Virus record (IMG/VR): IMGVR_UViG_3300046733_000629
Direction: 5' to 3' (one strand)
Length of the DNA stretch: 64,000 nt
Origin: a virus
Taxonomy: Duplodnaviria > Caudoviricetes
The notes under the pieces were generated by a model. The model searched no databases. It was given only the letters and a program-made list of their open reading frames with translations, and was not told the DNA's origin. Positions 40,553 to 41,622 of this stretch are shown here, piece by piece. The number at the start of each line of letters is the position of its first letter. The stretch's first letter is position 1. Both the position numbers and the translations under genes were made by a program.

Positions 40553-41398
40553 TTGGAGAACAAACATATGACGAACCCACTAATTCAAGCATATAGAAAA
40601 CCAGCTTTGTACATTGCATTGCCAAGTAAGGGTAATTTTTATAAAAATAAACCTAAACTCAGCATTGATAACGAACTAGCGGTATATGCTATGACAGCAA
40701 GGGATGAACTTATAACTAAAACACCAGACGCTTTGTTTAACGGAGAAGCCACTGTAAGTTTAATTAGAAGTTGTTGCCCAGACATTGATGATCCAGATTC
40801 AATGCCTGTGAGCGATTTACTTGTAATACTAATTGGAATTAGACAAGCAAGTTACGGTAAGGAAATTGACGTAGACGTTAAGTGTCCAAAATGTGAATTT
40901 GATAATCAACTACAACTTGATGCAAGTATAATGTTGTCAAAAACAAAATCAGAAATAGTCGCACGTGAAGTAACGTTAGACTCTGGTTTTAAAATAACTG
41001 CCAACCCATACACATTAAGAGATAGAACAACACTACAAGTTCAACAAATAAAACAAAACAAAATGATTCAAGGTTTAAGTGATGCAAAATTAGATGACGT
41101 TGCTAGACAAGAATTGTTTGGAAAAACATTTGTTGAGATTGCTGAACTTACTGTTAGTTTAATTACTAATAGTATTGAAAGTGTACAAGGTCCTGAAACT
41201 GATATTATTTCAGACAAGGAAGTGATTAAAGAATGGTTACAAAATATAACAAGAGCAGACTACGATGTAATTAAAAACAAAATAGAAGCACTAAGTGAAA
41301 GTGGTTTAGAAACTGAATTTAATGCTAGCTGCCAAGAATGTAATCACAATTGGAAAACTGGTGTTGATTTAGATATTGCAAATTTTTTCGGGGGTTGA
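40553..41398 (+). CDS. gp26: Baseplate hub assembly chaperone (gp26-like)
   Basis: NPL..YR.P.LYI.LPS.G.FY, MTARDE, IRQASYG, CPKC, C-terminal CxxC..W..NFF. Confidence 0.8.
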   Translation: MENKHMTNPLIQAYRKPALYIALPSKGNFYKNKPKLSIDNELAVYAMTARDELITKTPDALFNGEATVSLIRSCCPDIDDPDSMPVSDLLVILIGIRQASYGKEIDVDVKCPKCEFDNQLQLDASIMLSKTKSEIVAREVTLDSGFKITANPYTLRDRTTLQVQQIKQNKMIQGLSDAKLDDVARQELFGKTFVEIAELTVSLITNSIESVQGPETDIISDKEVIKEWLQNITRADYDVIKNKIEALSESGLETEFNASCQECNHNWKTGVDLDIANFFGG

Positions 41399-41416
41399 TA
41401 GCTTCTCGTCAACCCG
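41383..41416 (+). other. Candidate -1 programmed frameshift site (T TTT TTC plus hairpin)
   Basis: X XXY YYZ heptamer 41383-41389; GGGTTGA/TCAACCC stem 41392-41415; -1 frame is the next ORF. Confidence 0.6.
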
Positions 41417-41622
41417 TAGAAATCCAAGAACTAGTTCAACGATACGAAAAACAGTTAGAGAAATCTGAAAGCAGTTTCTTAGACATAGTAATACGCAGTG
41501 AAGGTGCAGTAAGTTATCAAGATATTATGATGATGCCTGTTCCGGCTATAAAATTATTAGTTGAAAGAATGAATCACAGAGTTGAAGAAATCAACAAATC
41601 TAATCGCGGTCCTCGCCGGTAA
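41395..41622 (+). CDS. gp51-like assembly chaperone ORF, possibly made only as a frameshift fusion
   Basis: GAVSYQDIMMMP...LLVERMN pattern; only a TTG start with no clear RBS. Confidence 0.6.
   Translation: MIASRQPVEIQELVQRYEKQLEKSESSFLDIVIRSEGAVSYQDIMMMPVPAIKLLVERMNHRVEEINKSNRGPRR

What the first reader, a model, noticed from the sequence alone, without database searches (positions are those of the whole stretch)
41383..41622. Likely -1 programmed frameshift fusing gp26-like and gp51-like ORFs (lambda G/GT logic in a T4-like phage)
The gp26-like ORF ends AAT TTT TTC GGG GGT TGA, containing the slippery heptamer T TTT TTC. A 7-bp GGGTTGA/TCAACCC stem starts 3 nt later. The -1 frame reads ..NFFRGLIASRQPVE.. 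straight into the downstream ORF, which has only a TTG start and no clear RBS. The pair sits divergently beside the tape-measure-like genes. G/GT frameshifting is established for many long-tailed phages, whereas T4 genes 26 and 51 are treated as separate genes.
Basis: partly seen in the sequence, partly recalled or inferred. Interest (0 to 1): 0.75.

Follow-up and report, generated by a model that had tools for sequence, protein, structure and literature searches.

The report
Frameshift makes two baseplate-hub chaperones
One tail-baseplate assembly gene of this marine giant T4-related phage very probably makes a short and a long protein, because some ribosomes slip back one base at a conserved TTTTTTC run. 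The same unannotated signal sits in cyanophages, KVP40 and other giant phages, whereas T4 itself uses two separate genes (26 and 51).

Summary
The gp26-like gene (40568-41398, Pfam PF12322) ends GCA AAT TTT TTC GGG GGT TGA, and an 8-bp hairpin follows 2 nt after the heptamer. The -1 frame then stays open for 77 codons, to 41619.

The heptamer alone is no rarer than chance in this window. Its position is what matters. About 19 deeply diverged lineages keep an in-phase T_TTT_TTY a few codons before the stop, followed by a -1 ORF of 57-81 aa. These include marine relatives, PA5oct, Atu_ph07, GAP32, Rak2-like phages, XacN1, cyanophages S-PM2 and P-SSM2, pelagiphage HTVC008M and KVP40.

The extension evolves as protein in the -1 frame only (dN/dS 0.17) and has no conserved start codon. 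It is homologous to the C-terminal tail of T4 gp51. T4 has two PF12322 genes (26 short, 51 long) and no heptamer. The nine other complete genomes checked have one.

The best reading is a programmed -1 ribosomal frameshift that gives a 276-aa gp26-like form and a 351-aa gp51-like form, as in lambda G/GT. No protein data exist. I found no published report, and public records annotate two separate genes. This scan has already noted the same signal in at least 26 other genomes.

The parts
40555..40558 (+). Shine-Dalgarno-like GGAG, 9 nt before the ATG of the gp26-like gene
   Evidence: read from the sequence
40568..41398 (+). gp26-like baseplate-hub assembly gene. The zero-frame product is 276 aa (the short form) and carries two conserved Cys pairs (C106/C109, C255/C258).
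   Evidence: Translation. Pfam PF12322 T4_baseplate, E 3.2e-21, 76.5 bits against a cut-off of 24.5. phrog_150 baseplate hub. Invariant Cys residues. AF2 model with pLDDT 85.8.
41383..41389 (+). Slippery heptamer T_TTT_TTC in X_XXY_YYZ phase. It is extended upstream by an overlapping A_AAT_TTT from 41380.
   Evidence: Invariant in 10 of 10 distinct sequences of the window's clade. Present as T_TTT_TTC or T_TTT_TTT in about 19 diverged lineages.
41392..41415 (+). Hairpin 2 nt after the heptamer, with arms at 41392-41399 and 41408-41415 and a loop at 41400-41407. The zero-frame stop TGA (41396-41398) lies inside the 5' arm.
   Evidence: -12.0 kcal/mol, z -2.8. 98.8% of cells are paired in 10 relatives. 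One U-A to C-G compensatory pair occurs in 3 sequences, and one U-A to U-G change.
41389..41622 (+). The -1 frame extension: 77 codons from CGG at 41389 to 41619, then a TAA stop at 41620-41622. It is homologous to the gp51 tail and predicted as a helical hairpin. The fusion product 40568-41389 plus 41389-41619 is 351 aa (the long form).
   Evidence: Translation. dN/dS is 0.17 in this frame against 1.0 and 1.9 in the other two. A profile finds 52 relatives, all short ORFs. Homology to the gp51 tail. AF2 pLDDT 81.7.
38539..40461 (-). Divergent neighbour of 640 aa, tape-measure-like by protein-language-model features only. It is a weak paralogue of the next ORF, 36521-38539 (-).
   Evidence: Atlas features score 0.93 to tape-measure clusters. 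No Pfam or PHROG hit. No BLAST similarity to T4 gp29. Paralogy at E 8e-4.

Best explanation
This is a programmed -1 ribosomal frameshift in a gp26/gp51-type baseplate-hub assembly gene. Most ribosomes read 40568-41398 and stop at TGA, giving a 276-aa gp26-like protein. A minority slip back one base while the two tRNA-Phe occupy UUU-UUC of U_UUU_UUC (41383-41389). The slip is probably promoted by the hairpin that starts 2 nt downstream and by the nearby stop. These ribosomes continue in the -1 frame to 41619. The result is a 351-aa protein with the same N-terminal PF12322 body plus a 77-aa helical tail that corresponds to the C-terminal tail of T4 gp51.

The phage thus makes, from one gene and at a fixed ratio, the two hub-assembly proteins that T4 encodes as genes 26 and 51. 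The sequence signals, the coding status of the extension and its homology to gp51 are shown here. The slip itself, its efficiency and the chaperone role of both forms are inferred. The chaperone role rests on T4 genetics, where gp26 and gp51 are listed as hub assembly chaperones (PMC3004832).
For: 1) The anatomy is as described.

2) The gene is PF12322.

3) An in-phase T_TTT_TTC or T_TTT_TTT, 0-12 codons before the stop, plus a -1 ORF of 57-81 aa occurs widely:
- all 16 IMG/VR relatives;
- PA5oct, Atu_ph07 and GAP32;
- Phosso, CBB, BF17, Munch, XacN1 and Xoo-sp13;
- 9 of 10 contigs reached independently through the extension profile;
- S-PM2, P-SSM2, HTVC008M and KVP40.
The background for a Phe-Phe dipeptide to be T_TTT_TTY in this genome is 2 of 26, with TTC-TTT preferred.

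4) The extension is under purifying selection only in the -1 frame: dN/dS 0.17 against 1.03 and 1.92. The gp26 body gives 0.13.

5) There is no conserved start. PA5oct has none in 75 codons, L019's first lies 41 codons in, and the window's TTG is CTG in three relatives.

6) A Rosetta-stone argument applies. T4 gp51 is PF12322 plus a tail in one frame. T4 has two PF12322 genes, and nine other complete genomes have one.

7) The cyanophage extensions hit gp51 HMM positions 205-249 at E 1e-9 to 3e-3. The fused forms score 58 bits against 22-32 bits for the short or reversed controls. The giant-phage (jumbo) extension profile matches the cyanophage extension at 92% probability, E 6.5e-7. The fused giant-phage profile aligns collinearly through the junction to the gp51 C-terminus at 94% probability, E 1.3e-7.

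8) The hairpin is kept, with one compensatory pair. Ten of 19 lineages have a hairpin at or below the 5th percentile of local background.

9) No terminator lies between the stop and the end of the extension. Contigs from RNA libraries cross the junction with an unchanged T6 run.

10) T4 gp26 ends ..EFFELL with TTC TTT, so it has no heptamer where no shift is needed.
Against: There is no protein, ribosome-profiling or reporter evidence for any member.

The 2-nt spacer is shorter than the 5-9 nt usual for stimulatory structures (general knowledge of -1 frameshifting), so part of the stem would already be unwound at the slip.

Nine of 19 lineages show no outstanding local hairpin.

Several phages have an ATG 3-4 codons after the site (S-PM2, P-SSM2, KVP40, Atu_ph07, Phosso, BF17, L032). 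The window has a TTG overlapping the stop. Coupled re-initiation giving a free small protein is therefore possible in those cases, and public records annotate it that way.

In RM378 and in contig L034 the extension lies in the +1 frame.
Confidence: 0.85

Rival explanations
1. There are two separate genes, as in current annotations. The downstream ORF would be translated on its own, by termination-reinitiation at the overlapping TTG 41395 or at ATGs in other phages. That would give a free mini-gp51 of about 75 aa and no fusion.
For: Public records annotate a separate 'gp51'. An ATG lies 3-4 codons after the site in S-PM2, P-SSM2, KVP40, Atu_ph07, Phosso and BF17. The TTG overlaps the TGA in the window.
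Against: The start is not conserved. PA5oct has none, HTVC008M and L019 have none early, and three close relatives have CTG. No SD precedes the TTG. This reading does not explain why T_TTT_TTY is kept in about 19 lineages against the genome's own avoidance of it. The residues before any start (FFRGLIASRQPEEI) are conserved as protein. In T4 the tail is covalently joined to a PF12322 body.
Confidence: 0.08
2. The fusion protein is the same but arises by transcriptional slippage. RNA polymerase would add one U in the T6 run, so standard translation of the edited mRNA reads into the extension.
For: A homopolymer is present. Some lineages lengthen it to T7-T9 (XacN1, L028, L029, HTVC008M).
Against: Six T is short for bacterial RNA polymerase slippage, which usually needs 8-9 or more (general knowledge). 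Most lineages keep C at position 7 instead of a longer run. Hairpins follow in half of the lineages. Contigs from RNA libraries show T6 without an indel, although contigs hide rare variants.
Confidence: 0.05
3. This is a chance arrangement or an assembly error. The heptamer and the open -1 frame would have no function.
For: TTTTTTC is common in this AT-rich window, with 28 matches against 25.6 expected. One public record (CMSTMSU) has indel errors here.
Against: The same arrangement appears in isolates and in metagenomes from many studies. There is purifying selection in the -1 frame and homology to the gp51 tail.
Confidence: 0.02

Closest known systems
Phage T4 gp26 and gp51 (baseplate hub assembly proteins; Pfam PF12322 T4_baseplate)
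   Same: The protein family is the same for the body. The short form ends just after the conserved Phe-Phe, as T4 gp26 does (..EFFELL). The long form carries a tail homologous to gp51 residues 205-249.
   Different: T4 encodes the two forms as two divergently transcribed genes, with no slippery site. Here, and in nine other complete genomes checked, there is one gene plus a -1 extension. In a tree, T4 gp26 groups with the gp51 clade (94/86 support, only one gp26 sequence). That fits a later duplication in the T-even line.
'gp26' plus small 'gp51' gene pairs annotated in KVP40, S-PM2 and P-SSM2
   Same: The layout is identical: a PF12322 gene ending ..SFF/DFF with T_TTT_TTC, then a -1 ORF similar to the gp51 C-terminus. 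The KVP40 record itself notes the similarity to about 40 aa of the gp51 C-terminus.
   Different: Those records treat the small ORF as an independent gene, and no frameshift is annotated. The window's extension is longer (77 against about 57 aa), with an added N-terminal helix.
Lambda gpG/gpGT and the conserved -1 frameshift of tail assembly chaperone genes (Levin 1993; Xu, Hendrix and Duda 2004, as cited in PMC5009743); P2 E/E+E'
   Same: A slippery heptamer lies a few codons before the stop of a tail-assembly gene. Two products share the N-terminus, and the minor one has an extra C-terminal domain. The gene sits next to tape-measure-like genes. In T4 the equivalents act in assembly.
   Different: No sequence or fold similarity to tail assembly chaperones was found (inconclusive). 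The body is larger (276 aa) and has two Cys pairs. The gene is divergent from the tape-measure-like genes, not between the tube and tape-measure genes. The heptamer is U_UUU_UUC and not lambda's G_GGA_AAG.
E. coli dnaX -1 frameshift (A_AAA_AAG plus downstream hairpin)
   Same: It is a bacterial-type -1 shift on a homopolymeric heptamer, stimulated by a simple downstream hairpin.
   Different: dnaX also uses an upstream SD-like element and a spacer of about 6 nt, and it produces a shorter product. Here no upstream SD is evident, the spacer is 2 nt, and the shift extends the protein.

Membership tests
Programmed -1 ribosomal frameshift cassette | X_XXY_YYZ slippery heptamer in the zero-frame phase | tested here: met
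   T_TTT_TTC at 41383-41389. It is conserved in phase in about 19 lineages.
Programmed -1 ribosomal frameshift cassette | Downstream stimulatory RNA structure at a suitable distance (usually 5-9 nt) | tested here: inconclusive
   There is a stable hairpin with one compensatory pair, but the spacer is only 2 nt. Nine of 19 lineages lack an outstanding hairpin. No consistent pseudoknot partner was found.
Programmed -1 ribosomal frameshift cassette | The overlapping -1 ORF codes for protein and lacks its own conserved initiation signal | tested here: met
   dN/dS is 0.17 in the -1 frame only. No start is conserved. All 52 profile hits are short ORFs with ragged starts.
Programmed -1 ribosomal frameshift cassette | A trans-frame protein is actually made | not testable with these tools
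   Needs mass spectrometry, a reporter assay or ribosome profiling.
PF12322 T4_baseplate (gp26/gp51) | Match to the family model above the curated cut-off | tested here: met
   76.5 bits against a cut-off of 24.5, E 3.2e-21.
gp51-type long form (PF12322 body plus C-terminal tail) | C-terminal tail homologous to T4 gp51 residues about 205-249 | tested here: met
   The chain runs from the giant-phage (jumbo) extension to the cyanophage extension (92% probability, E 6.5e-7), and from the cyanophage extension to the gp51 HMM (E 1e-9). The fused profile against gp51 is collinear through the junction at 94% probability. The direct comparison is weak (E 0.009). The Pfam model PF28602 seen on gp51 homologues is not in the local library.
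Lambda G/GT-type tail assembly chaperone pair | Two products with a shared N-terminus, the longer made by a -1 shift near the 3' end | tested here: met
   Met in silico only.
Lambda G/GT-type tail assembly chaperone pair | Gene located between the tail tube gene and the tape measure gene, on the same strand | tested here: not met
   The gene is divergent from the two tape-measure-like ORFs. In T4, gene 51 lies three genes before gene 29.
Lambda G/GT-type tail assembly chaperone pair | Sequence or fold relationship to known tail assembly chaperones | tested here: inconclusive
   No PDB sequence hit. The best Foldseek E-value is 0.37. The VIA wide search gives at most Z 7.4, on a generic helical hairpin only.
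Lambda G/GT-type tail assembly chaperone pair | Both forms bind the tape measure, the long form recruits tube protein, and both are absent from virions | not testable with these tools
   This rests on the T4 literature only, where gp51 is not in the particle and gp26 is listed as a hub assembly chaperone (PMC3004832).

The most novel reading that the evidence does not exclude
The -1 frameshift may be the ancestral and general way in which T4-like phages make their hub-assembly pair. That group includes Kyanoviridae, pelagimyophages, KVP40-type Straboviridae and the Rak2/PA5oct/Atu_ph07-type giant phages. T-even phages would later have hard-wired it by gene duplication into genes 26 and 51. On this reading, gp26/gp51 are the long-missing functional equivalent in T4-type phages of the lambda G/GT tape-measure chaperones, and the frameshift sets their ratio.
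Probability: 0.4. Interest if true: 0.8.

Novelty: new variant of a known kind. Interest (0 to 1): 0.7.

Why it matters
Frameshift-made chaperone pairs are a hallmark of long-tailed phages. From my own knowledge, T4-type phages have been regarded as lacking one, and the roles of gp26 and gp51 in hub assembly remain unclear (PMC3004832).

A conserved hidden frameshift would explain three things. It would explain why T4 has two paralogous hub-assembly genes. It would show that the small 'gp51' genes annotated in cyanophages, KVP40 and hundreds of giant-phage genomes are really the second exon-like part of a trans-frame protein. It would also provide a natural series of U_UUU_UUC cassettes, with and without hairpins, for studying bacterial frameshifting.

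It gives a direct, cheap test in cultivable phages such as PA5oct, KVP40 and S-PM2.

Tried and rejected
- DNA-level search of the phage collection found nothing. Only protein-level searches reach the relatives.
- A narrow T-even gp51 HMM could not tell the giant-phage (jumbo) fused forms from shuffled controls. Profile-profile comparison and cyanophage intermediates were needed.
- No in-frame long form of the extension family exists among 1.84 billion representatives at E <= 1e-3, nor among the 120 best homologues of the short form, which are all 275-294 aa apart from two fragments of 231 and 235 aa.
- Fold searches of the short-form model gave no meaningful match, and there was no PDB sequence hit.
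- No Rfam family covers 41300-42800.
- No consistent pseudoknot partner for the hairpin loop was found.
- The neighbours show no BLAST similarity to T4 gp29.
- No whole genome is held for the window.
- Only assembled contigs of RNA runs were available. They cannot show rare U7 transcripts, expression level or strand.
- Nine successful literature searches, plus reading four papers, found no report of this frameshift. The library lacks most subscription journals, so a report may exist elsewhere.

Full report
**What is in the window.** The + strand ORF from ATG 40568 to TGA 41396-41398 encodes 276 aa, preceded by GGAG at 40555-40558. It matches Pfam PF12322 T4_baseplate (E 3.2e-21, 76.5 bits, cut-off 24.5) and phrog_150 baseplate hub.

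The gene ends GCA AAT TTT TTC GGG GGT TGA. T_TTT_TTC (41383-41389) is in X_XXY_YYZ phase. The overlapping A_AAT_TTT would give the same product.

The -1 frame reads FFRGLIASRQPVE.. and is open to 41619, with a stop at 41620-41622. The predicted fusion is 274 + 77 = 351 aa.

An 8-bp hairpin (41392-41399 with 41408-41415, 8-nt loop, -12.0 kcal/mol) begins 2 nt after the heptamer and contains the TGA. No terminator lies before the end of the extension. No Rfam family matches.

**Is it more than chance?** TTTTTTC alone is not unusual: 28 matches in the window against 25.6 expected. Among the 26 Phe-Phe dipeptides in the window's 39 long ORFs, however, only 2 are T_TTT_TTY. TTC-TTT is used 11 times although TTC makes up only 19% of Phe codons. 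The genome therefore tends to avoid this run.

Against that background, every relative keeps it at this exact place:
- 16 IMG/VR loci at 34-96% protein identity;
- PA5oct, Atu_ph07 and GAP32;
- Phosso, CBB, BF17 and Munch;
- XacN1 and Xoo-sp13, with the still slippery T_TTT_TTT.

I also chose ten contigs without reference to the heptamer, through a profile of the extension. Nine have an in-phase T_TTT_TTC or T_TTT_TTT at the end of a PF12322 gene with the extension in -1. The exception is a 1-kb contig whose extension is in +1.

**The extension is a protein-coding region without its own start.** Within the window's clade, dN/dS is 0.17 in the -1 frame, 1.03 in the zero frame and 1.92 in the +1 frame. 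The last 72 codons of the gp26 body give 0.13.

The TTG at 41395 is CTG in L006, L007 and L010. PA5oct has no ATG, GTG or TTG in the whole extension. L019's first start is 41 codons in.

The extension profile finds 52 relatives among 1.84 billion representatives. Apart from two large multi-stretch proteins (852 and 2017 aa, each matched over a short internal stretch), all are short called ORFs of 29-119 aa with ragged starts, and none is an in-frame long form. The 120 best homologues of the short form are 275-294 aa, apart from two fragments.

**Relation to T4.** T4 gene 26 ends ..GAG TTC TTT GAG TTA CTA TAA. It has no slippery site, and gene 25 follows. T4 gp51 is a PF12322 protein over residues 1-201 (E 3.9e-52) with a tail of about 48 aa.

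T4 holds two PF12322 genes. PA5oct, Atu_ph07, GAP32 and BF17 hold one, as do S-PM2, P-SSM2, HTVC008M, KVP40 and RM378. In S-PM2, P-SSM2 and KVP40 the single gene ends ..TTT TTC GTA/GCA TAA. In HTVC008M it ends AGT TTT TTT TAA. In all four a -1 ORF of about 57-63 aa follows.

These extensions hit the T-even gp51 HMM at positions 205-249, with E-values of 1e-9, 2e-8, 6e-6 and 3e-3. The fused forms score 36-59 bits over the whole gp51 model, against 16-32 bits for the short forms or reversed-tail controls.

The giant-phage (jumbo) extension profile matches the cyanophage extension at 92% probability, E 6.5e-7. The fused giant-phage profile aligns in one collinear stretch through the junction to the gp51 C-terminus (94%, E 1.3e-7, score 59.9). 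The reversed tail scores 51.8 and the short form alone 43.9. Direct comparison of the extension with gp51 is weak but falls in the right place (E 0.009; E 8e-4).

Public records already call the small ORF 'gp51 baseplate hub assembly catalyst' (S-PM2p208, PSSM2_015). The KVP40 record notes its likeness to about 40 aa of the gp51 C-terminus. None annotates a frameshift. The records read for the giant phages call it a hypothetical protein or leave it out.

A maximum-likelihood tree puts T4 gp26 with the gp51 clade (94/86 support), apart from KVP40, the cyanophages and the giant-phage clade. It contains only one gp26 sequence. The tree fits a duplication in the T-even line that replaced the frameshift.

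**RNA signals.** In ten distinct sequences of the window's clade the helix is 98.8% paired. One U-A to C-G double change occurs in 3 sequences, and there is one U-A to U-G change. Five pairs never vary. This supports a maintained helix, but the region is also doubly coding.

Across 19 lineages, 10 have a hairpin within the 45 nt after the heptamer that lies at or below the 5th percentile of local background (mean z -1.9). The other nine do not. The 2-nt spacer in this clade is short by the usual standard. No pseudoknot partner is conserved.

**Structure and context.** AF2 models the short form well (pLDDT 85.8). The extension is modelled as a long helix, a short helix and a second long helix (pLDDT 81.7). 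No solved structure resembles the short form, so kinship with known tail assembly chaperones is not shown.

The divergent neighbours (640 and 672 aa) have no family hit and no similarity to T4 gp29. The 640-aa neighbour resembles tape-measure clusters by language-model features (0.93), which is only a lead.

**Expression.** The stretch occurs in seawater metagenomes from many studies and partly in six metatranscriptome assemblies. RNA-library contigs cross the junction with T6 unchanged. Several diverged contigs align only at 41371-41423, the frameshift cassette. Contigs cannot show rare slippage products or prove transcription.

**Verdict.** Programmed -1 ribosomal frameshifting that yields a gp26-like short form and a gp51-like long form is the best explanation (0.85). 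The rivals are independent re-initiation of a small gp51 (0.08), transcriptional slippage (0.05) and chance (0.02).

The mechanism is a known kind, but this gene family and phage group are not on record for it in the literature I could search. Earlier agents of this scan reported the same signal in at least 26 other genomes. I re-tested their main claims here. I also added the cyanophage, pelagiphage and KVP40 cases and the homology chain to gp51.

Noticed in passing
window, all long ORFs: Phe-Phe dipeptides strongly prefer TTC-TTT (11 of 26) although TTC is only 19% of Phe codons. Only 2 of 26 are in-phase T_TTT_TTY. This suggests genome-wide avoidance of slippery T-runs.
   Followed up: partly
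window 36521-38539 (-) and 38539-40461 (-): Two adjacent weakly paralogous ORFs (E 8e-4) lie between the portal gene and the gp26-like gene. They have no Pfam or PHROG family. The second looks tape-measure-like only by language-model features.
   Followed up: partly
L047 (Rhodothermus phage RM378) and L034 (1-kb Tara contig): In these two the extension lies in the +1 frame, not the -1 frame, after a T7 or A6 run. This could be a different recoding event or a homopolymer sequencing error.
   Followed up: no
window 41371-41423: Several diverged metatranscriptome contigs align to the window only over this ~50-nt frameshift cassette. It seems to be an island of nucleotide conservation.
   Followed up: no
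L024 (Escherichia phage CMSTMSU, MH494197): This record has T5 where the T6 should be, and the gp26-like gene is split in two. These are probably homopolymer errors in an unverified assembly.
   Followed up: no
window 42200-42660 and 42710-43153 (-): A GC-richer non-coding stretch lies beside a SegE-like GIY-YIG nuclease gene (PF19835, E 1.3e-33). No Rfam family matches it at E <= 0.01. Other notes of this scan treat it as an RNA gene.
   Followed up: partly
proteins P0003-P0094 (T-even gp51 homologues): The precomputed domain lists show a newer Pfam family, PF28602, on gp51 homologues next to PF12322. It is presumably the gp51 tail. It is absent from the local Pfam copy, so it could not be run on the extension.
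   Followed up: partly
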